Assembly (NCBI RefSeq): GCF_021028975.2
Contig: NC_059431.1
Span: 81,344,001-81,408,000, forward strand
Length of the DNA stretch: 64,000 bases
Direction: 5' to 3'
Source: Sphaerodactylus townsendi
Taxonomy: Eukaryota
Shown: in pieces, positions 5,832 to 60,544 of the stretch
How the letters are laid out: each line of letters begins with the position of its first letter
Numbering within the stretch: the first letter of the stretch is position 1
Made by a program: the position numbers and the translations under genes
The notes under the pieces: model-generated
Seen by the model: the letters and a program-made list of their open reading frames with translations, nothing else
What the model was told of the DNA's origin: nothing
Databases searched by the model: none

Positions 5832-6346
5832 GGCCCTTTCCACATGGGCGGACTACGGCACCCTGGGGATGGCAAAAATGCCGTCCCCAGGGAGCTGTTC
5901 ACACAGGGGGTGCAGCTGCTTCGCAGCCACGCAGCCTGAGCAGCGCGAAGCTGCCGTTTTCCAACCTCGCTTCCCCAGCGAGGTTTTTGGAAAACGGCGG
6001 CTTGGAGCCGCTGCCGTGCGAACGGCAGCATCTCCAAGGCGCCTTCCCTCCCCCCATGTCCGGGTGACCTACCTGTCCTGCGGCCCTCCAGCACGTCGCC
6101 GAGGCCTGGGGACACGCCCCCTCTGCCCTGTGACTCTGGAGTGGTCGCGCAGGGCAGGGGGCCGTGTCCCCTGGCCTCAGCAACGTGCCGGAGGGCCACA
6201 GGACAGGTAGGTCGGCCTGATGACGGCGCAACTCTGCGCCGTCATCCCAGGAGGTTCTGGGACCGTTCATGCAAACGGTCCCAGAAGGGTTGGGTCGGCG
6301 TCATCTACACCGACCCGACCCCTTCTGCCGCCGTGCGGAAACGGCC
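5832..6346. mobile_element. GC/CpG-rich PIF/Harbinger-like MITE (copy 1)
   Basis: Termini ggccctttccacatgg ... ccgtgcggaaacggcc. Collinear with the copy at 17115-17631. Internal palindrome gacctacctgtcc(6066)...ggacaggtaggtc(6213). TSD not intact (tta/tgc). Confidence 0.8.
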
Positions 6347-7156
6347 TGCGATTGAATGACAGGGTCATCTCTGTACCAAGATATTTTGGTTTTGGAGTAT
6401 TTTGAACTTAGTCTATCTTGGGAATATTATTTCAATTTATGTTGTCTCTTCTATTAGCTACATAAATATATTTGTTTTACATTGAGCAACATATGCAAGT
6501 GGAAAATAACTCTGCACACACTTAAACGAAAGGCTTGGTAGGGACTTAAAGGGGCAAAAGGTAATCCTAGATACCTGAATCCTAGATACCTTGGTTCTAA
6601 CACAAGAGTTACATTTGTGGTTGGTTTCCATTTGATATTTGGATCTTGCTGGTGTGAGGGTGATCAGAGAGAATGTTTGCCTGGGAATCTATGGGAGGTG
6701 GGGGGGGGGACTCTCTACAGCCCTGATGCTTATTATTGCACTTTCTACTTAGATTTTCCAGCAATTTGGAGACTAACAGAGAGATGAGGGATGGGGAACT
6801 TTCACTGGAGTTCTTGGTCACATTATTGATCAATGAAAACCTGCCACATTGCTATAAAATCTCAATATTTTCTTCTTTGGACTGTTTGTTTCCCTCTTTT
6901 GCCCTCCCTCCAGAGGCAGGTAGATGAGACACTTTAACTAGTAAATAAAAGGATTGAGATGCATACTGTGTGCATATGTGAATGTATGCCCAAACAGCAT
7001 CTCCCATCTTCTGTTCTGCTTGTTGTCAGGAGAAGCAGACCAAGTAGATTATCTGCACACATTCCTAATTAGTTTACCCAGGATTCTTCTGTTTCCCAGC
7101 ATCCCACTGCCAGTAAGAAGTTCTCTAATTTTAGCTGTGGCATCCCATGAATTCTC

Positions 7157-11221: not shown

Positions 11222-11297
11222 ATTTTCAAAGGCTTTCATGGCTGAAATCAACTGGCTGTTGTGGATTTGCTTGGCTGTGTGGCCCTGGCCTAGTAGT
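11222..11297 (-). mobile_element. Penelope-like element terminal fragment
   Basis: tcaaaggctttcatggctgaaatcaactgg...ggctgtgtggcc is the reverse complement of the tail of the 18106-18311 element (ccagtgattccggccatgaaagcctttga). Confidence 0.6.
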
Positions 11298-13280: not shown

Positions 13281-13434
13281 ATCAGCTATTTGCTTCAAGA
13301 AAGGTGGTAAGGATGTTTTATTTAACTTAATTGTATACCTAATATCCTTCGATTCTCCCCAAATAAAATAAAAGGAGCTCAGTTTGGGCAAAAAGCAGGG
13401 GTGGAGGAGAAAATAAGGGGAAGAAAATCTCAAG

Positions 13435-13933
13435 GGCCGTTTCCGCACGGCCCATAAACGACGGCCTGGGGGCAGTAAAAACACCGCCCCCAGGCCGCCG
13501 TTCGCACAGGCGCCGCTGCTGCAACGCAGCAGCGGCGACCTGACTCCGCTTCCCTCCCCCCAGGGCGGCGTCAGGCCGCCCTAAACAACAACCCTTTAAA
13601 GGGTTGTTGTTGGGGAGGAAGCGTCTTCCTCCTCCGTCCGACTCACGATGTCCTCGTCGTCGCCTGCTGGCCGTCGTAGCCCCGCCCACACTGTCCACCG
13701 ACCTCCAGGGGACGGAGGGCGGAGTGGGCGGGGCTTAGACGGCCAGCAGGCGACGACGAGGACATCGTGAGTCGGACGGAGGAGCGGGAAGAGGCGGCTC
13801 CGTGCGGAGCCGCCTCTCCTGTGGCGGCCTCTGCTTGGCCTGCTCGCACGCTTGCGTGCGAGCGGGCTTCTGCCCCCACGCCGCCAGAACTCTTGCCGGC
13901 GTGGGGGCGCGAGGTGGCCGTGCGGAAACGGCC
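13435..13933. mobile_element. Young CpG-rich PIF/Harbinger-like MITE (copy 2, different internal sequence)
   Basis: Perfect TIR ggccgtttccgcacggcc / ggccgtgcggaaacggcc. 3-bp TSD aag (13432-13434, 13934-13936). Perfect 47-bp internal inverted arms at 13629-13675 and 13738-13784. Confidence 0.9.
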
Positions 13934-17114: not shown

Positions 17115-17631
17115 GGCCGTTTCCGCACCGGCAAATCATGGCGGCCTGGAGACGGTAAAAACACCGTCTCCAGGCCGCCATTCGCATGGGGGGTGCAGCT
17201 GCAATGCAGCCGCGCCGCCCTCGCGCCGCCCGGCTGGCCTGAAGCTGGCGTTTCCCCAGAGCGCTTCCCAGCGCTCTTTTGGGGGAAACGCCGGCAAGAA
17301 GCCGCTGCCGAGCGAACGGCAGCAGCTTCATGCCGCCTCCCCCCACCCGGCACTCACCTTGTCCCCGGGCCTCCGGCGCGTCGCCAAGGCCTGGGGACAC
17401 GCCCCCCTGCCCTGCGCCGCTCGAGCAGGCGCGCAGGGCCAGGGGAGCGTGTCCCCAGGCCTCGGCGACGCGCCGGAGGCCCAGGGACAAGCCGGGTCAT
17501 GCGAGCATCGGCGCTCCACAGCGCCGGCTGCCCGCCTCTTCCTGGGACCGTCCGTGCGGATGGTCCCAGCGTCTTCGGGTCAGCGCGAGAAGCGCCGACC
17601 CAGCCGTTTCCGCTGCCGTGCGGAAACGGAC
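17115..17631. mobile_element. Young CpG-rich PIF/Harbinger-like MITE (copy 3)
   Basis: TIR ggccgtttccgcac / gtgcggaaacggac. 3-bp TSD tag (17112-17114, 17632-17634). Internal inverted arms at about 17358-17402 and 17447-17491. Confidence 0.9.
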
Positions 17632-17909
17632 TAGGTTTTTGACAGCTGTGATCATTCCCTTCCCAAAAGCAGAGTCCTAAATTAGAATAGGATATAATGT
17701 ACCTGATTGTGGAAGGAAGCTAGCATGACTGTTACACAAACAAAAGAAAAAAATCCAGGGAAACATTTGCCAGAATTAGGTATTTGATACCTCAAATAAT
17801 AATATCCTGGAGAAAGCAAATGGTCTAGCTGTGGTAGAGCAATGTTACTATGATTTTTTAAACAGAAACATGTAAGAGAACATATAGTAGAACAATATAG
17901 TAAGAATAG

Positions 17910-18055: not shown

Positions 18056-18143
18056 ATGCCACATTGAGTAGAATGACACCTATGCTGTTAGTGGCATTCA
18101 TGTGACTTCCGGGCTGTATGGCCGTGTTCTAGTAGCATTTTCT

Positions 18144-18184
18144 CCTGACGTTTCACCTGCATCTGTGGCTGGCATCTTCAGAGG
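18144..18184 (-). ncRNA. Minimal type I hammerhead ribozyme motif (Penelope-associated), core intact
   Basis: The minus strand reads CCU-CUGAAGA-ugccagccacagaugcaggu-GAAAC-GUC-AGG: CUGANGA box, GAAA box, palindromic minimal stem III, GUC cleavage triplet and a CCU/AGG stem I. Confidence 0.7.
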
Positions 18185-18186
18185 AT

Positions 18187-18227
18187 CCTCTGAAGATGCC
18201 AGCCACAAATGCAGGTGAAACATCAGG
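18187..18227 (+). ncRNA. Minimal hammerhead ribozyme motif, mutated partner copy
   Basis: CCU-CUGAAGA-ugccagccacaaaugcaggu-GAAAC-AUC-AGG. The GUC to AUC change is consistent with CpG decay and breaks the stem III palindrome. Confidence 0.55.
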
Positions 18228-19131
18228 AGAAAATGCTGCTAGAGCACAGCCATACAGCCCGGAAACCACATGAAACTCCAGTGATTCCGGCCATGAAAGC
18301 CTTTGACAATACATTCATGTGATTACTTCTATGCTTTTTCCTAGCTTTGTATGGTACAGGGTCATAGGAAAGCTATATTGGTAACTTATGTATTTCAGCT
18401 GGTGCTAGCTCTTAGCTTGCATAGTTGGTGGACAAATTTTCTATATCATCAATGAAGGCACCGGTTTCCTGAATCATGCAGTTTGCCCCTCTTTGTGCCA
18501 GCACAGTCAGGATAAATGGTTTAAATGATTCATAGTGTACTTGCTGCTTTGGGGGATGACAGGGTGGAGTGGGAAGCAGAAACTACAATTCCCATAAGAC
18601 TGTATTGAAAACATGCATGCATGACTTATTCTAAAGCTAGGCTGTTCTTCTGCTTTTGCCATTAATGAAGAATGAATCTGGCAGCTCTAAGAGATGGAGT
18701 GACACTCTGCATCACTAACCATGAAACTGAAATATTTTATGTCCAGGAAGAATGTGGCTAACAGCAGAGGAAGATGCAGCAGTGGCAAACAGGGAGCACG
18801 GTAAGCCATGGGAAAGCAGCAGAAGAAAGCCATGGAAAAGCAGTGGCACATGAACCACTGACTTTTTTGCACTGATTTTTGCACTGACTTTTTTGCATAA
18901 ATATGTGGTACAAATAAAAACAAAAAGCTTTCGCAACATTTGACTGTATAAATTGCAATTTGCAATGAAATTGTAAGTTGAACCAGCAGGTTATCATACA
19001 TCATGAATTATGGTAACTTCTCCATGATACAAAACATATGTTAGCAACTGCAGTGTGTGTGGACTGGCAGGCTCTACATGTGTGAGTATGTGTATTCAGC
19101 CCATAGAGTATTCATGGCAACAAACTAACAC

Positions 19132-19280
19132 AGGTTGTTTGCCATTGTTTTTCTCTGCCTTCCTCTGAATAGTGGTCCTGGAATTCTTTGGTGGTCTCCC
19201 ATCCAAATATAAATCAGGTCTGACCCTGCTTAGCTTCCAAGATCTGATGTGATCAGGCTAGTTTGGGCCATCCAGATCTG
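19132..19280 (-). mobile_element. 5S rRNA-derived SINE fragment (5S-Sauria/SINE3-like)
   Basis: Minus strand gcctgatcacatcagatcttggaagctaagcagggtcagacctgatttatatttggatgggagacc resembles the 5S rRNA internal promoter region, followed by caatggcaaacaacc. Confidence 0.75.
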
Positions 19281-27877: not shown

Positions 27878-28780
27878 TCAGCGGCTGGTCCCTCCAAAGG
27901 CCCGGCGGAACAGCTCCGTCTTGCAGGCCCTGCGGAACTCACCAAGGTCCCGCAGGGCCCGAACAGCTGGTGGAAGAGCGTTCCACCAGGCTGGGGCCAG
28001 AGCTGTAAAGGCCCTGGCCCGTGTGGAGGCCAGCCGCATCATCGAGGGGCCGGGGACCACTAGTAAATTGGCCTCTGCTGAACGAAGAGGCTGTGTGGGA
28101 ACATATGGGGTGATGCGGTCTCGAAGATACGAGGGTCCCAGGCCGCGCAAGGCCTTGAAGGTCAACACCAGCACCTTGAAAACGATCCGGAACTCTACTG
28201 GGAGCCAATGCAGTTGGCGCAACACAGGCTGAATATGATCCCAACTGGCGCTGCCTGTGAGCAGGCGCACCGCCGCATGTTGGACCAGTTTCAGTCTCCG
28301 GATCGAGCGCAAGAGAAGGCCAGCGTAGAGCGAGTTACAATAGTCTAGCCTGGAGGTGACCGTTGCATGGATCACAGTGGCTAGGTCCGCTTGGGAGACG
28401 AAAGGGGCCAGCCGCCGGGCCTGGCGAAGATGGAAAAAAGTAACCCGGGTTATATGGGCCACCTGGGTCTCCATGGAGAGAGACGAAACCAGGTGGACCC
28501 CCAGGTTGCGCACGGAGGGGGTCGGCGCCAATGTGACCCCCTCCCACACCAGTGGCTGAAAAGCCCCCCCTTCGCAGCCAAGCCAGATGATCTCCGTCTT
28601 CGATGGATTCAGCTTTAACCTGCTCTGTCGCAACCAACCAGCTACCACATCCAAACAATGCTGTAGAGCCGCAGGGGCGGCGGCTGCTCCCCCCTCCATC
28701 GACAGAATGAGCTGTGTGTCATCCGCATACTGATGACAAATCAGCCCAAAACTCTGTACCAGCTGAGCAAGGGGTCGTAT
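27878..28780 (-). pseudogene. L2 ORF2, RT C-terminal half and downstream domain (open frame)
   Basis: QYADD (YADD at 28718-28729), LKLNPSKTE, VRNLGV, VTSRLDYCNSLYAGL, LHWLPVEFRIVFK, LGPSYL, APAWWNALP. Confidence 0.92.
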
Positions 28781-29006
28781 TACAAGCTAGGGATGTGCGC
28801 TAAATAATAGCCCGGGGATAATAACGCTCTCTGGGTACAACACCGCAGGAAAGCTGGCAGCTTTCCGGGAAGGCTTGATCCCCGCGCCCACTTGCTGGAT
28901 TCCGCCCCTCGAGAAATGAGACAATGCCCCGCGACTCCGGAGGCTGACCCAGAAGCGGTGGAGTCAAAAGGTCATGGTCGAATCATATCAAACGCTGCGG
29001 TAAGAT

Positions 29007-29738
29007 CTAACAGAAATAATACCAACAGCGCCGATCCGGGCCTAGGTCCAAGCTGTATACGGAGTGCGTAATCTGTGGACGGGCGAGTGAGAACAGTCTG
29101 GCCCGGTCCACATGCCCAGCACGGAAGCCGGACTGGAAGGGGTCAAAAGCCGATGTGTCATCCAGAAAGCCTTGAAGCTGCTCCAGCACCACTCTCTCAA
29201 TTACCTTCCCCAGAAACGAAAGATTCGAGACGGGGCGGTAATTGGCCAGATCCCTCGGATCTAACGGTGGTCTTTTTAAGAGTGGGTGGACCACTGCCTC
29301 CTTCAACCCATCCGGAAAGACCCCTTGCTCAAGGGAGTCATCCGCAAAAAAGCTCATGAATGCCTCACAGCTGATACTCAATTGAGAATTTGAAGAACCC
29401 TCCGATAGGGAGGTTAAGGACTGAATTATACAGAACAATTGTGCCGGGCGGGAGCTAGCGGATGCGAGAGAGGAGGAGGAGAAGGTTCTCTTCGCCTCCT
29501 TCGTCACCATCTCATAGGCTTTCATAAACGTCCTGTAAGATGTTCGCGCAGCTTTGTCACGAGATTTCCTCCATACTCGCTCTAGGGATAGAGCATTTCT
29601 TGGGATAGGTCGGAGGTCAGAAGGCGAACGAGCAACCCCATGTCTCATGCGCCTTCTATCATATGGCCGCCGCCTACCACAATATCTACCCCGTCCCATC
29701 AACACAGGGATCCCCAGCCCCAAAATTGGTGCCCCCAT
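29007..29738 (-). pseudogene. L2 ORF2 N-terminal fusion with internal deletions (endonuclease absent)
   Basis: MGAPILGLGIPVLMGRGRY...PIPRNALS is joined directly to LERVWRK.., then FFAD|DSLEQGVFPDGLKEAVVHPLLKRPPLDP...NYRPVSNLSFLGKVIERVV...DPFQSGFRAGH. Confidence 0.85.
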
Positions 29739-32531
29739 AACTCTGCCGATCTCTCTTTACCCAACAGCCTAACTAATGTCCCACTAAAGTGGGTCCAATT
29801 CAACAGGCAGTAAGTGATCCCAGCTTAACCTAAACCTTATAAATACAATAAATACAGGCTAGGCAGAACTGACTGTACTATACAATAATTAATTTCTACT
29901 AACCTACAACTAATGCTAAAACTAATACACTTCAGCTATTGCCAGCTGAAATTATACAATATCTATCAAAAGATTGAAAAAATAGAAAGTGTAACCAAGG
30001 GGGGGGGGGTATTAAGCGGCGGCAAGGAAAAAAACTGCCACCCAAGCCCTCAGGTCTCTAATGGGGCGATGACACTATGTAAACCCCTCAGAAGACTGTA
30101 GGGATAATGATGGTAATACAGCTGCGCAGATGACGGGTATGGGGCTCACACCACCCAGGCCAGTCAATTACGTGCAGAATATCCAGGCCAAAGGAAGCTT
30201 CATCACATCGACAATCCAGCGTTATGATCAGGACGGCAATCGAAGGGCTGCTGCCACCAGTCACCTTGGCCAGCCCTGAGATCAGAAGCTCTGCGTCCAG
30301 AAATTGCCCCTTGCAGCGTGATCTATACAGCCCTCTCACGACTGGTCCATACGTTGCAAGAAAGGCAGTGATGTCATCAGATGCCTGAACTCCCTCATCC
30401 TTCCATGATAACACAAATAGTAACGCAAATGGTCTTAATAAGCTCCACACTTCGTTCCTCCAAGGGGATCCAATCCCTTGGCTTTTTGCTGAAGCTCCTC
30501 TCCCTTGATCATGGGAGCGAGAGAGCAGCCTGTCCTGCAGCGGAGCTGGTCTCCAAGGCAACAAGGGGAACGTCGAAGGTTGTGAGCATAGAACAAGCGA
30601 TCGCGTCGTCAGCACGGCCCCTGCAATACCAGAGGCGTCCACGGGGCCGGCTGCTTCTCCACGTCCTATACTGGGCCTCAATTGCTGTTGCTAGGTTCAA
30701 ATATGCCAGTATTAGATTTTTAAAAACACTGTTTAGTTATCTATAGTTCACTAGTTCCCTGAATTTAGTGTTTTATATTGTTCTGTGCACCTACCTGCAT
30801 TTTTCAGCTTTTCCTTCTGTTATTTGTATGTAGTAAAGATTTAAAATGTTCTCCCTCACTGTCTGCCAATTCCCTTCCTCCCAAAGTAGTGCTTAACTTT
30901 GTGCTTGTTTCAGGCATACGCAAAAAAATCCTGAACCAGAGATGTAGAAGTGCTGCATGCATACTGTGAGAATTTTTAATAACAGCTTGGAAACTGCACT
31001 TTGATCCTAACACAGATGACAGAACTATTTATTAAGTTCCTGAATCCACAACAACTATTATTTAGTAAAGAAACAGGTAGCAATCATGTTTGTCCAGCAG
31101 TTTTAAAGAAGGGAGTTTTCTATACATTTGAGAATAATCCTCTTTTTATAGCATACTTAAACATATGCAAGGGCTACTCCACTGAGCACTGGTCTAATCT
31201 CATCTTGTAACATTTCAATATTTGGCTTTAATCTGAGTGATCTTTCTCAGAGACTACCTACTGTTCTGATCACACATACTGCTGATTTGCATGTGGCATT
31301 TTCTTGATGTGGTTATGTATATGTGAAAACAGCATAAGTGTGCCCTTTACCACATTTAGTTTCCACTTATGGTGAGTCAACTGGTAGTTTTCATTCATGG
31401 TGTGTAGGAAAGTATGTTTTCCCTCTATACTTTCAACCTATTACTAAATATCACACAGAAGTTTCTCACTGTTAGATAAAGGTCACTTTGACACAGGTCA
31501 TTTGGCCCAGTTTAAAATTCTTTTCCCTGCTTCCTCACAGCACTATGGTGCTTCCATGCACTTCCCAGATTTTCCCTGCCTTCCCGATGATCTTTCCCAA
31601 ACCTGCTTTGCTGCAATGTTGCTACTTCAAGATCACAACAAAGCTGAAGTAGTATCCATGTGGTTGGGAACGTCCAAATCTTCCCCCATCCCAGCCCCTA
31701 CAGCAACCATTTCATACTTTTAAAATTAGTAATTGACATATTGATATGGGTTGTCTGGATTCCAAACTTTGATTTAAAAATAAAAGCAAGTATCAAGCCC
31801 CAATTTTTTGCCCCAAAGTGCTCCAGCTGCTTCAGCGTGGCAGCTGCCCTGTGGGTAACGGGCTCCAATCATTTCCTTCACATTAAGAAACAACAATAGT
31901 AAAGATGTTCTGGAGAGAAGATTTGAAGCCTTCTAATTTTCCTGGCATCTAAACTAACATGGAAAAGGAACTGCCCAGACAAATTATGCAGCTAATATGA
32001 TAGTTTTAATGTTATTAAATCTAATTTAATAAATTGATCATTGGTATCAGAATATGTAGATCATTATAATCTCCCCCTTTTTACAGGCTGAACTGCCACA
32101 GGAAGACAGGTGTTATTATCATCTTCTGGGTAATATGGATGAATTGGGGGTGTTTGAGGGCTGAGACATGAGTCCTCCGCATGCATAGTGGACAGCATGA
32201 GTGCATGTATATCTCCACCATGTATATTGTGTAATGTATGGCACCATCACGGCCATCCTGCCATTCTTTGCAAGAAAATGTGCACATAACACGTTGACAT
32301 TGCCATTGTTTTATAGACAAACTCTCAAAATGTGCTAGCTTACATCTCAATGATATCACTGTAGTATTTTTAAAGAAATTTTTCCTGCTTGGGCTCTTGG
32401 AGACAATTATATAGTTGCCACAAGTGATTAAGTGAGTAGCAACTTACAGCATGAATATCATCATATGTTCTATTAAGTGGTAAGGTTATAAAATAAGTTT
32501 ATGCAGTGATTATGGAATATATATTCTAGTG

Positions 32532-32670
32532 CCGTGGTGGCGAACCTATGGCGCTCCAGATGTTCATGGACTACAATTCCCATCAGCTCCTGCCAGCATG
32601 GCCAATAGGCAGGGGCTGATGGGAATTGTAGTCCATGAACATCTGGAGTGCCATAGGTTCACCACCACGG
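32532..32670. mobile_element. hAT (Charlie-type) palindromic MITE, 139 bp
   Basis: Near-perfect fold-back ccgtggtggcgaacctatggc...gccataggttcaccaccacgg. 8-bp TSD ttctagtg/ttctagta. Confidence 0.9.
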
Positions 32671-32674
32671 TTCT

Positions 32675-32825
32675 AGTAAGGTAGCCCTGCTCGTCTGCTG
32701 CAGTAAGACCAACAGAAGAGTCCTTAAAGACTAAAAAATTCATTGCAGCATAAGCTTTCAGGGAATCCCACAAAAGGTTATGCTACAATAAACTTATCTA
32801 TCTTTAAGATATTACTGGGCTCCTA
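32675..32825. mobile_element. Degraded Penelope-derived inverted repeat
   Basis: ttaaagactaaaaaattcattgcagcataagctttc ... aaaaggttatgctacaataaacttatctatctttaag. Related to 9685-9770 and 38856-38994. Confidence 0.55.
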
Positions 32826-34264: not shown

Positions 34265-35225
34265 CTTAAGAATTTTGGATTCGATATGGCCCCACCATTC
34301 AGATTAATGGAAAAGTTGTAGTGACTTATTAATCAGAGTGGTGGCTTCACAACTGAAACACAGACACAACCAGAATTTAAAGGTGACAAGCCAGACCCTT
34401 GTCTCCAGTAGATGTTGTCTGGTTTCAAGGCACAGAGCAGCATAGGGCACACAGTGGGGCACACCCAGGAGCCTATACAGGAATCGTGATTGTACCTGCT
34501 CAACTGAGTTAGACCAGGAGCCTATTCAAAATGAGACTCCGTACAGAAGCTGCTGGGATACCTTATCATTAAACACTTTAATTGCCACAGGTACATATTG
34601 TTTGCCCTTGTTGTAAAAAAAAATATGATGGCCGCAACGCTGGCCCCACAGTTTGTGATCATGTGGCCTCTATGGCTAACCAAGCCTCCTCTATAACGAA
34701 GGTGCAGACCCAGATATTTGAAACATTTGATCTGTTCTAGCTGATGGCCTCCTAATAGCCATCGTGATGGCTTCCAGGATCTTGAGAACATTACGATCTT
34801 AGATTTTTGAATATTTAATGTTAGGCCATTGTTAAGACAATATTCATTACAGGTCACTAATAATCACTTCAAACCAATATTAGTAAGTGATAAGAGGATT
34901 GCATCATCTGCATATAATAATAGAGGGGTTTGAAGACCAGCTAGGTTTGGGCAGTGTGAATTAACTGATTTAAGTACTGGTGCTAAGTCATTTAGATATA
35001 AATTAAAGAGGGCAAGGACACAGCCTTGTTTAACTCCCCTGGAGACTGATAGTTTAGATGTGAGCAGTCCCTCTTGATTACATTTGACTTGACACTCGGT
35101 GTTATGGTGAAGGGCCTTAATAAGCAGAATCAGTCTGTCCTCAACACCCATTTTGGCCAACTTGGCCCATAGTTTGTCTCTGGGGACAGAGTCAAAGGCC
35201 TCCTTGATGTCCAACCCATTCATTC
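34265..35225 (-). mobile_element. RTE-X-like LINE reverse transcriptase fragment (pseudogenised)
   Basis: LDIKEAFDSVPRDKLW, RGVKQGCVLA, LFNLYLNDL, LLYADDAILLS, LNIQKSKIVMF, FKYLG. Stops and frameshifts present; clade assignment tentative. Confidence 0.88.
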
Positions 35226-38997: not shown

Positions 38998-40823
38998 GGC
39001 CCTTTCTGCACAGGCCATGTGGGTGAGGGTGCACTGGCATAGCCTATGCCAGTGCACTCCTGGGGCGGTTCTCATCAACGGCCCCGCTGGCCCAGCAGCC
39101 AGCAGCATGGCCTCCATACAGGCTGCACTGCTCCCAGTGCCTTTTTATCTCCTGCTTGCTCTCATCGCTCTGTGGAGGCCAAGGGTCATTCCCCCACAGC
39201 CATAGCAACACCTCCAGCAGGGGCGTAATGAGGCAGCCCTGGGCAAACTGTAGCCCCGGGCAAAACCTGAGTTGGATGCCCCCCCCCCCATGGGCAGCCA
39301 CTCCACCACAACCAAATTTTTTTTGCACCAGGACATTGGTGCCTGCAGGGGTGCACTTTTAGACATATTAGCACCAAAATTTCAGCATATCATCAGGAGA
39401 CTGTCCTTATGCTACTCCCCAAGTTTGGTGAGGTTTGGTTCAAGGAGTCCAAAGTTATGGACTCCCAAAGGGGGTGCCCCATCCCCCATTGTTTCCAATG
39501 GGAGCTAACAGATGGGGGCTACAGTTTTGAGGGTCCATAACTTTGGCCCCCCTGAACCAAACTGCACCAAACCTGGGGGGTATCATTAGGGAAGTCTCCT
39601 GATGAGACCCCGAAAGTTTTGAGACTGTGCCTTCAGAATGTGCCCCCCCCCCAGCTTGCAACACCCATTGACAGCAATGCAGAAAACTCAATGCAGAACA
39701 AAGATTCTTGGGCAAATATATAGGATGTTCCTGAAGGGGGTGCATTTTTGGATGTATCAGCACCAAAATGTCAGGGTATCATCTGGAAACTATCCTAATG
39801 GGACCCACCAAGTTTGGTGCAGTTTGGTTTTGGGAGTCCAAAGTTATGGACCCTCAAATGGGGTACACCATCCCACATTCTTTGCTAAGGAGATGGGGGC
39901 TACCCTTTTGAAGGTCCATAACTTTGGACCCCCTGAACCAAACTGCACCAAACATTGGGGGTGCCATCATGACAGTCTCCAGATGATACCCTGAAATTTT
40001 GGTGCTGATACGTCCAAGAATGCCCTCCCTGCAAGAACATCCCGAAATTTGCCCAAGAATCTTTGTTCTGCATTGAGTTTTCTGCATTGCTGTCAATGGG
40101 TGTTGCAAGCTGGGGGGGGCACATTTCTGAAGGCACAGTCTCAAAACTTTCAGGATCTCATCAGGAGTCTGCCCTAATGATACTCCCCAGGTTTGGTGCA
40201 GTTTGGTTCAGGGGGGCCAAAGTTATAGACCCTCAAAACTGTAGCCCCCATCTCCTATTAGCTCCCATTGAAAACAATGGGGGATGGGGCACCCCCTTTG
40301 GGAGTCCATAACTTTGGACTCCCTGAACCAAACCTCACCAAACCTGTGAGGTAGCATAAGGACAGTCCCCTGATGATACGCTGAAATTCTGGTGCCGCTA
40401 GCCTAAAAACCGCGCCCCCTGCAGGCCGAAAATGGAAAACCACTAAAATACCCAAAAACGAACCGAGCATTTTGATGCCCCCCACAAGGTGATGCCCTGG
40501 GCAGCTGCCCACCTTGCCCAATGGGCATTATGCCAGTGACCTCCAGGGTCAGAGGCTTGTCTCCTGGCTCCACAGAGTGACCGGAGTGACAGGAGGTAAA
40601 AGGGGACCAGGAGCAGTGCGGGGAAAACACTGGCTTCCACCTGATGCCGTTCGCTTGGCACCGGGTGGAAGCCAGTGTTTTCAAAAAGACTCGCTCAATG
40701 AGCAAGTTGAGAAAATGCCGTTGTGCGGGGGGAAACACCGGTACCATTGCTGTGTGATCTTCTCCCCCACAATAGCATTTTTACCAGTCCCACACTGGTC
40801 TAAATGGCCTGTGAGAAAGGGCT
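38998..40823. mobile_element. Older PIF/Harbinger-like MITE interrupted by a hAT insertion
   Basis: Termini ggccctttctgcacaggccat / atggcctgtgagaaagggct, with ttt on both flanks. About 500 bp once the insertion is removed. Confidence 0.75.
39218..40538. mobile_element. Non-autonomous hAT element, 1321 bp, nested insertion
   Basis: TIR caggggcgtaatg / cattatgccagtg. Exact 8-bp TSD acctccag (39210-39217, 40539-40546). Large internal palindrome. Confidence 0.9.
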
Positions 40824-59968: not shown

Positions 59969-60544
59969 CAGCGGCGAAACTCCCAGGGGATGGGGGTGTG
60001 TGCGACGCACCAGGCGCACGAATTTGGGTCATGTGGGGGGGTACAAAATTCCCCCGGCCCCTCCCCCTTTCCCCCATTTGCTGTGATGCCCCCCCCACAC
60101 ACACTTACTTTAGAAAATTGAGCAGGCTGGAGAACAGGCCTTCCTGTTCTGGTGGGAACTACATTTCCCAGGGTCTCCTGGGAAATGTAGTTCCCACCAG
60201 AACACAAGCCCTGTTCTGCAGCCTGTTCAGTTTTCTAGGCGAGTGTGTGGGGGGTGCCATGGGGGGCAGCATGATTCCCCCCATAGCGGCCCCCCTGTGG
60301 TGCCCCCCACACTTATTTTAGGAAACCAAGCAGGGTGGAGAACAGGCCTTACTGTTCCAGTGGGAACTACATTTCCCAGGAGACCCTGGGAAAATGCGAA
60401 GTTCCTGGAAGGCCTGTCTCAACCTGCTCAAGTTTCCTAAAGTGAGTGGGAAGTGAAGGTGCTGCCGCGGGGAACCAACATGGTTTTCACCACAGCGGAC
60501 CCTAGCGGCTAATCTGGTGCACTCCCTGTTATCCACGCCCTCTG
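59969..60544. mobile_element. Non-autonomous hAT element, 576 bp, with two internal hairpin modules
   Basis: Termini cagcggcg / cgccctctg. Exact 8-bp TSD tgttaagg (59961-59968, 60545-60552). Palindrome gttctggtgggaactacatttcccagg..cctgggaaatgtagttcccaccagaac. Confidence 0.9.

What the first reader, a model, noticed from the sequence alone, without database searches (positions are those of the whole stretch)
18095..18322. Back-to-back hammerhead ribozyme pair in a TSD-flanked 206-bp Penelope mini-element
Seen: a fold-back whose two arms each carry CUGAAGA...GAAAC(G/A)UC bracketed by CCU/AGG, one per strand and pointing outward from a central GGATCC, with an 11-bp direct repeat on both sides. 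Known: Penelope-like retroelements carry minimal hammerheads with a palindromic stem III that are thought to cleave mainly as dimers. Inference: this ORF-less unit places a potential self-cleavage site on whichever strand is transcribed. The minus-strand copy keeps GUC; the plus copy has decayed to AUC. The long hairpin would compete with ribozyme folding, so it could act as a conformational switch.
Basis: partly seen in the sequence, partly recalled or inferred. Interest (0 to 1): 0.7.

Follow-up and report, generated by a model that had tools for sequence, protein, structure and literature searches.

The report
Head-to-head Penelope retrotransposon insertion stub
This 206-base hairpin is one of more than a thousand similar head-to-head stubs of a known kind of jumping gene (Penelope/Poseidon); it was likely made in one insertion event rather than being a self-copying element, and its two ribozyme motifs are predicted to be locked in the hairpin and unable to cut.

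Summary
The anatomy is real: a 92% fold-back centred on GGATCC, a minimal hammerhead motif on each strand, and an 11-bp direct repeat. The sequence is the 5' start of a Penelope/Poseidon ORF, related to anole PAc. The genome holds 27,025 exact arm motifs, 1,219 centres with this same zero-spacer junction and 1,520 with 1-30 nt spacers. It is not a 206-bp family: sampled zero-spacer units span 197-270 bp, come from several subfamilies and share no arm-specific changes. Outer ends sit at the two published reverse-transcription start sites. Inner ends pile up at a predicted transcription start (67 of 99 arms). In 20 of 41 insertions each arm holds sequence the other lacks, which points to two priming events per insertion. 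A ribozyme switch is unlikely: the antisense arm is transcribed first on either strand, and the ribozyme fold costs 68-73 kcal/mol. Both cores have also lost the G10.1-C11.1 pair. There is no Rfam hammerhead hit. The layout is known for this class, and this scan reported it before in this and other genomes. One local oddity: three private bases in the right arm mirror the target-site duplication.

The parts
18095..18105 (.). Left copy of the target-site duplication (11 bp as written; 7-11 bp once the CATT overlap with the element is allowed for)
   Evidence: family TSDs are 10-16 bp, mostly 12-14
18106..18185 (-). Tail-less inverted arm (80 bp). It ends about 13 nt short of the family's usual tail-less end, next to a TGTG match between target and element.
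18143..18185 (-). Minimal type I hammerhead motif, GUC triplet, palindromic CG kept, G10.1-U11.1 wobble; predicted cut between 18147 and 18146
   Evidence: features from PMC4209133
18183..18188 (.). GGATCC junction: both arms end in the GATC palindrome, at the family's predicted transcription start (TATA at -27 to -35, initiator-like TCAGATC); the TATA box itself is not in this unit
   Evidence: transcription start inferred from motif geometry and arm ends, not measured
18186..18311 (+). Tailed arm (126 bp, up to 130 with CATT): 5' leader plus the first codons of the Penelope ORF
   Evidence: (89% identity to the start of an 819-codon RT ORF in L223)
18186..18228 (+). Minimal hammerhead motif, AUC triplet; the C15.2/G16.2 palindrome needed for dimer helix III is broken; G10.1-U11.1 wobble
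18196..18315 (+). Remnant of the ORF start (ATG at 18196, 40 codons, two stops)
18267..18274 (+). Eight bases that mirror the left TSD copy; three private changes at 18271, 18272 and 18274 extend the inverted repeat to 89 bp, likely by templated rewriting
18279..18311 (+). One-sided Penelope 'tail' (about 33 bp) between the two RT start sites
   Evidence: PMC11167929
18312..18322 (.). Right copy of the target-site duplication

Best explanation
This is a single, likely dead insertion product of a Penelope/Poseidon retrotransposon, likely built by two reverse-transcription events, one from each nicked target strand. Inferred steps: (1) the GIY-YIG endonuclease makes a staggered cut, giving the TSD; (2) one strand primes at the downstream RT start site (ORF +115 to +120, the tailed arm) and the other at or near the upstream site (ORF +83 to +88, the tail-less arm; here about 13 nt further in); (3) both cDNAs run off the RNA 5' end, which lies just upstream of the hammerhead; (4) the two cDNA ends are joined through the GATC palindrome by end joining. 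The hammerheads are passengers because they lie between the RNA start and the RT start sites. In any read-through transcript the antisense arm comes first and is predicted to zip up the ribozyme as it emerges, so the RNA would be a long duplex and not a self-cleaving switch. Shown: the anatomy, the family, the end positions and the copy statistics. Inferred: the transcription start, twin priming, end joining and ribozyme inactivity.
For: [quoted passage not shown] By hand it matches 71 of 91 bases, ungapped, to the PAc RNA printed in Fig. S1 of PMC11167929. Outer ends: among 48 zero-spacer units, 37 long arms end at arm position 125-130 and 36 short arms at 93-98, matching the PAc start sites and tail. 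Inner ends: 67 of 99 census arms stop within 8 nt upstream of the ribozyme stem and 27 exactly at GATC. A TATA motif lies 27-35 nt upstream of an initiator-like A in the 39 upstream sequences listed, which were selected for carrying a TATA motif. The 12-bp palindrome further upstream forms only 3 exact centres against 1,219 at GATC, so palindromy alone does not set the joint. Two templating events: among 41 TSD-flanked insertions with one tailed and one tail-less arm (duplicate rows removed by hand from 48), the tail-less arm reaches at least 6 nt further 5' in 20, the tailed arm in 6, and 15 are equal. In the 20, each arm has sequence that the other lacks. Made afresh: the two arms of one copy share 56 derived states against 17.2 +/- 5.1 in shuffles (0 of 2,000; 39 copies). 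Across copies, short-short, long-long and short-long identities are all 0.90, and several subfamilies are represented. Ribozyme: the enforced fold costs 67.5 and 72.8 kcal/mol, and 39-41 of 43 core bases pair with the upstream arm when the core is complete. Ribozyme CpGs are intact in 54 of 89 and 61 of 89 arms against 61 of 85 and 59 of 83 for non-ribozyme CpGs.
Against: The transcription start is inferred only. The same spot also looks like a 3' splice acceptor (pyrimidine tract plus CAG), and the D. virilis Penelope promoter is TATA-less (PMC2377424). Shared states within a copy could also come from gene conversion between arms. One 20-nt spacer occurs at three loci with different flanks within 1.6 Mb, two of them complete with their own TSDs and with the tail on opposite arms, so junctions are sometimes copied. 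Zero-spacer centres carry no mark that would reveal such copying. The samples come from contig C1 only: 47 of 1,219 zero-spacer loci and the first 5.6 Mb for the census. Pfam did not detect the GIY-YIG domain.
Confidence: 0.75

Rival explanations
1. Self-priming (snap-back): one cDNA or an antisense template folds back at the GATC palindrome and copies itself, giving the second arm. A self-priming origin was proposed for palindromic head-to-head junctions of rotifer Penelopes.
For: Palindrome at the joint. The arms of one copy resemble each other more than chance. Published proposal in PMC3846280 (passages). For this single copy, with equal arms, snap-back and twin priming give the same sequence.
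Against: In 20 of 41 insertions the tail-less arm reaches further 5' than the tailed arm, so neither arm can be a plain copy of the other. Snap-back does not explain why the short arm ends at the upstream RT start site.
Confidence: 0.13
2. A non-autonomous fold-back mini-element that is itself transcribed and re-inserted by the Penelope protein.
For: 1,219 exact zero-spacer centres. 19 of 30 TSD-flanked units are 214-224 bp. One complex spacer is shared by three loci with different flanks.
Against: No arm-specific shared changes. Several subfamilies. A continuum of spacers. The unit lacks the TATA box. The shared spacer has only 3 copies, clustered within 1.6 Mb, with the tail on opposite arms, which fits local gene conversion better. 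The right-arm variant of this copy has no other Penelope copy: the 2 other exact hits are unrelated DNA.
Confidence: 0.07
3. The insertion was kept as a functional RNA element of a host transcript: a ribozyme switch, or a long duplex for editing or small-RNA production.
For: Very stable hairpin. The left junction is shared with a related organism whose flank differs at 10-11 of 486 bases, so the insertion is old enough to be shared. The arms have been partly homogenised.
Against: The complement always precedes the ribozyme, and the ribozyme fold costs 68-73 kcal/mol. Both cores have lost G10.1-C11.1. Family CpGs decay as fast inside the ribozyme as outside it. All microRNA matches lie below their gathering scores. 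No host exon was found: 58 of 123 long frames were scanned and only RT fragments matched.
Confidence: 0.05

Closest known systems
PAc / Poseidon from Anolis carolinensis, Penelope/Poseidon clade (Frangieh et al. 2024, PMC11167929; parts 1-2 of 4 and the text of Figs S1, S2 read)
   Same: ORF starts inside the hammerhead; cut site 26 nt after the start codon; RT start at ORF +111 to +118; tail between two start sites; both target strands nicked and extended in vitro; 71 of 91 bases match by hand; ORF of similar length (819 codons).
   Different: A different species and family. In the parts read, the paper does not explain fold-back units or a strong stop at the RNA 5' end. Its ribozyme cleaves only with protein and is not needed for insertion.
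Canonical EN+ Penelope-like insertion architecture: inverted 5'-truncated copy, 30-40 bp tail at one end, TSD (Craig et al. 2021, PMC8557442; Arkhipova et al. 2013, PMC3846280; passages read)
   Same: Head-to-head inverted copy, one-sided tail, TSD of about 10 bp, palindrome at the junction, TATA plus initiator-like motif in the pLTR, first ORF codons in the pLTR.
   Different: This is the minimal case with nothing between the arms. The published explanation is self-priming or endonuclease resolution, while the copy data here favour two primings.
Minimal type I hammerheads of metazoan PLEs (Cervera and de la Pena 2014, PMC4209133; parts 1-2 of 4 read)
   Same: CUGANGA and GAAA boxes, one extra base before helix II, 4-bp helix I, no monomeric helix III, palindromic 15.2-16.2. 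Pairs on opposite strands 100-700 bp apart were already noted in Schistosoma.
   Different: Here the two motifs abut. Both lack G10.1-C11.1, and the plus copy lacks the palindrome. They lie on opposite strands and so cannot form the tandem dimer.
Non-LTR retrozymes (bioRxiv 10.64898/2026.07.22.740005; part 1 of 5 read)
   Same: Short, non-coding, PLE-derived, hammerhead-bearing.
   Different: Retrozymes are head-to-tail tandem repeats with same-strand ribozymes; this unit is head-to-head.
L1 twin priming
   Same: Both target strands prime cDNA, giving an inverted 5' part within one TSD.
   Different: In L1 the two cDNAs cover different parts of the RNA. Here they usually overlap fully and start at two fixed sites.

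Membership tests
EN+ Penelope-like element (Penelope/Poseidon) | Parent has a single ORF with RT | tested here: met
   819-codon ORF in L223 starting in the arm; RVT_1 E 1.1e-12
EN+ Penelope-like element (Penelope/Poseidon) | C-terminal GIY-YIG endonuclease | tested here: inconclusive
   GVY...YIG...R...EH motif visible near the C-terminus (motif recognised from recall); no Pfam hit; the atlas look-up returned nothing
EN+ Penelope-like element (Penelope/Poseidon) | Inverted 5'-truncated copy, one-sided 30-40 bp tail, TSD | tested here: met
   76 of 99 census arms have an inverted partner within 1.4 kb
EN+ Penelope-like element (Penelope/Poseidon) | RT phylogeny in the Penelope/Poseidon clade | not tested
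   no tree built; assignment rests on a 71 of 91 base match to PAc and on shared geometry
Minimal PLE hammerhead ribozyme | CUGANGA and GAAA boxes, UH cut site, extra base before helix II, helix I of 4-5 bp | tested here: met
   both arms
Minimal PLE hammerhead ribozyme | G10.1-C11.1 pair | tested here: not met
   G-U in both arms of this copy; CG is the family majority at this site
Minimal PLE hammerhead ribozyme | Palindromic 15.2-16.2 for dimer helix III | tested here: inconclusive
   met on the minus arm (CG), not on the plus arm (CA)
Minimal PLE hammerhead ribozyme | Self-cleavage | not testable with these tools
   needs an assay; junctions near the cut site number 75 against 28 in a control window, mostly explainable by microhomology
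Rfam hammerhead families | Covariance-model match | tested here: not met
   a family copy with intact catalytic boxes also failed
Non-autonomous mini-element, MITE or retrozyme | Copies of one length descending from a master, with shared diagnostic changes | tested here: not met
Non-autonomous mini-element, MITE or retrozyme | Terminal inverted repeats (MITE) or same-strand tandem ribozymes (retrozyme) | tested here: not met
   the tail lies outside the inverted repeat, and the ribozymes are on opposite strands

The most novel reading that the evidence does not exclude
These stubs record the full Penelope insertion reaction: the two RT start sites found in vitro are both used in one event, one per nicked strand, likely on one RNA with the tail-primed enzyme trailing (tail-less arm longer in 20, tailed arm in 6). 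Both cDNAs run off the transcription start and are joined by microhomology, and the target overhang can even rewrite the opposite arm. That would explain the long-known but unexplained inverted-plus-tail layout of the class.
Probability: 0.6. Interest if true: 0.45.

Novelty: new member of a known kind. Interest (0 to 1): 0.2.

Why it matters
As a locus it is ordinary: one stub among thousands, with no sign of function. Its value is as a sample of how Penelope elements insert. The papers read call the inverted-plus-tail structure undefined mechanistically, and the copy ends here give a testable model for the existing PAc in vitro system. It also warns that paired hammerhead motifs in reptile genomes are mostly such passengers.

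Tried and rejected
Rfam hammerhead search: no hit on the locus, the isolated minus arm or a family copy; the microRNA hits are generic hairpin matches below their gathering scores. Expression: no RNA holder listed, so the transcription start, transcription and cut ends could not be tested; only contigs were laid. Empty site: not found; the runs laid carry the left junction, and the right junction was not resolved in the related organism. Host gene: none found in the 58 of 123 long frames scanned. Palindrome-only joining: rejected, 3 against 1,219. Spliced template at the CAG/ATCC site: no recurrent upstream exon was seen by eye in the short-stop arms displayed (output partly cut); not excluded. 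In vivo cleavage mark: 75 junctions near the cut site against 28 in a control window; 25 and 17 of these are explained by 2-nt microhomology, so inconclusive and at most a small minority. Arms from two different subfamilies in one copy: several apparent cases (L038, L039, L043, L053, L058, L069) look like read errors in the second arm of a hairpin, so they were not used. The right-arm variant as a subfamily: rejected. Literature: searches found no paper describing twin priming or 5' run-off for these stubs; most subscription journals are not in the library. The GenBank supplement of PMC11167929 could not be read, and its figure PDFs gave text only. Sequence look-up in earlier findings returned nothing.

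Full report
Observation. The fold-back is real: arms 18097-18185 and 18186-18274, 89 nt, 92% complementary, no gap, with folding z-scores near -20 and -23 on the two strands. An 11-bp direct repeat at 18095-18105 and 18312-18322 encloses 206 bp. Each arm carries a minimal hammerhead pattern pointing outward from GGATCC at 18183-18188. Rfam has no hammerhead hit here, but it also misses a family copy with intact catalytic boxes, so that test is insensitive.

Identity. The right arm is 89% identical to the start of an 819-codon ORF elsewhere in the genome (L223). That ORF has an RT domain (E 1.1e-12) and a GIY-YIG-type motif near its end, which I recognised by eye and Pfam did not score. Window 18196-18315 translates as the same N-terminus with two stops. 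By hand, 18225-18315 matches 71 of 91 bases of the anole PAc RNA printed in a supplementary figure of PMC11167929. That paper puts the start codon inside the hammerhead, the cut 26 nt after it, and RT initiation at ORF +111 to +118, with the tail between two start sites. In the window the cut is 26 nt after the ATG codon and +111 to +118 is 18306-18313. The unit is therefore two head-to-head copies of the 5' end of a Penelope/Poseidon ORF. Inverted truncated copies with a one-sided tail are described for the class (PMC8557442; PMC3846280), and opposite-strand pairs of minimal hammerheads were noted in PMC4209133.

Is it a mini-element family? The 1.81-Gb genome holds 27,025 exact copies of a 14-base arm motif, 1,219 exact zero-spacer centres and 1,520 centres with 1-30 nt spacers. 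The 50 spacers listed are nearly all different, and many are short copies of neighbouring sequence. I fetched 47 of the 50 zero-spacer places listed, all on contig C1. With the window copy, 30 of 48 have a TSD of at least 10 bp; their lengths run from 197 to 270 bp, 19 of 30 lie at 214-224, and only the window copy is 206. In the 39 copies with enough aligned columns, the two arms of a copy share 56 derived states against 17.2 +/- 5.1 in shuffles (0 of 2,000). Across copies, short arms resemble short arms no more than they resemble long arms (0.899, 0.898, 0.899). Several subfamilies occur, usually with both arms of the same type. No master fold-back is visible. Against this reading, one 20-nt spacer occurs three times within 1.6 Mb with different flanks. 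Two of these are complete with their own TSDs and carry the tail on opposite arms. Local gene conversion is the simplest account, but it shows that junctions can be copied.

What fixes the ends. Outer ends: 37 of 48 long arms end at arm position 125-130 and 36 of 48 short arms at 93-98, which fits the two RT start sites. Inner ends: in a census of the first 100 motif hits on C1 (99 after removing duplicates), 67 arms stop within 8 nt upstream of the ribozyme stem and 27 exactly at GATC; the other 32 are spread over hundreds of bases. Of the 99, 76 have an inverted partner within 1.4 kb. In longer copies selected for a TATA motif, it lies 27-35 nt before an initiator-like A just upstream of GATC, so the strong stop is likely the RNA 5' end. 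This is inferred, since no RNA run was listed. A better palindrome about 35 nt upstream forms only 3 exact centres, so a palindrome alone does not set the joint.

One priming or two. One search found 133 candidate pairs, 53 with a TSD of at least 9 bp; 5 rows with two like ends were set aside, and removing duplicate rows by hand from the other 48 left 41 insertions. The tail-less arm reaches at least 6 nt further 5' in 20, the tailed arm in 6, and 15 are equal (two-sided binomial p about 0.009, my arithmetic; 0.0014 on the raw rows). In the 20, each arm has sequence the other lacks, which a snap-back copy cannot give. PAc nicks and extends both strands in vitro. The best model is twin priming, run-off and end joining at GATC. 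The window copy has equal arms and cannot by itself tell the two models apart.

Ribozyme. In a head-to-head unit the antisense arm is transcribed first on either strand. When the core is complete, 39 of 43 (plus) and 41 of 43 (minus) of its bases are predicted to pair with that arm, and forcing the ribozyme fold costs 67.5 and 72.8 kcal/mol. Both arms have G-U in place of G10.1-C11.1, and the plus arm has lost the CG palindrome. Across zero-spacer copies, ribozyme CpGs are intact in 54 of 89 and 61 of 89 arms and other CpGs in 61 of 85 and 59 of 83, so there is no sign of protection; 6 of 48 units keep both cores intact by a fixed-offset count that undercounts arms with indels. Minimal hammerheads are inactive as monomers and weak as dimers, and the PAc ribozyme needs protein and is not needed for insertion. 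Junctions near the cut site number 75 against 28 in a control window, largely microhomology-driven, which is inconclusive.

What is particular to this copy. The short arm stops about 13 nt early, beside a TGTG match with the target. The right arm has four consecutive departures from the family majority at 18271-18274. One is a common subfamily state; the other three are seen in 1 of 81, 0 of 82 and 2 of 80 other arms. All four match the mirrored TSD in register, and none of the other 29 TSD-flanked units shows more than two such matches. The variant has no other Penelope copy in the genome. This is likely a templated rewrite in the quasi-palindrome, during or after insertion. The left junction is also present in a related organism whose flank differs at 10-11 of 486 bases, so the insertion predates that split.

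Earlier notes. My reading was fixed before the look-ups. Searches then showed that this scan reached similar readings on other DNA, in this genome and in others. These are unchecked notes and were not counted as support.

Verdict. Observation confirmed. Penelope origin supported; mini-element and switch not supported. A known kind of structure, interest 0.2, with a testable insertion model as the only wider value.

Noticed in passing
L219, L220, L221 (G000:C1:21.6-23.2 Mb): An identical 20-nt junction spacer at three loci with different flanks and nowhere else in the genome; two are complete units with their own TSDs, share a private arm variant and carry the tail on opposite arms. Likely ectopic gene conversion, possibly re-mobilisation.
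   Followed up: partly
window 18271-18274: Three private bases in the right arm mirror the target-site duplication; unique among 30 TSD-flanked units.
   Followed up: yes
L129, L136, L139, L189: Units whose tailed arm covers almost only the tail and stops near where the other arm starts, like classic non-overlapping twin-priming products.
   Followed up: partly
L038, L039, L043, L053, L058, L069: One arm of the hairpin is heavily garbled with indels while the other is clean; this looks like long-read error in hairpins, so such loci in this assembly need care.
   Followed up: no
L036, L038, L148: A recurrent 24-nt duplication at the arm start, probably a template jump between two CAGAT words; seen in copies that differ at a subfamily site.
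   Followed up: no
G000:C4:158576350-158576736, C7:17909894-17910395, C3:148008910-148009094: Short same-strand tandem arrays (period about 160-180 bp) of the ORF-start region of this family; if each unit holds the hammerhead, these are the copies that could form dimers.
   Followed up: no
window 19164-19275 (-): Rfam 5S rRNA match at 38.2 bits (gathering 38); probably a 5S-derived SINE or pseudogene.
   Followed up: no
window 17115-17632, 5832-6347, 13433-13549: GC-rich repeat with several internal hairpins, two long copies 71% alike and a third fragment; family not identified.
   Followed up: no
window 39341-40426, 60093-60448, 13629-13784, 32526-32676: Other fold-back repeats, the largest about 1.1 kb at 88% with internal repeats; unrelated to this Penelope arm by BLAST.
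   Followed up: no
window 11222-11255 (-): A 34-bp fragment of a Penelope tail (88% alike).
   Followed up: no
window 27878-29756 (-), 34864-35223 (-): Reverse transcriptase fragments (RVT_1) of broken LINE-like copies.
   Followed up: partly
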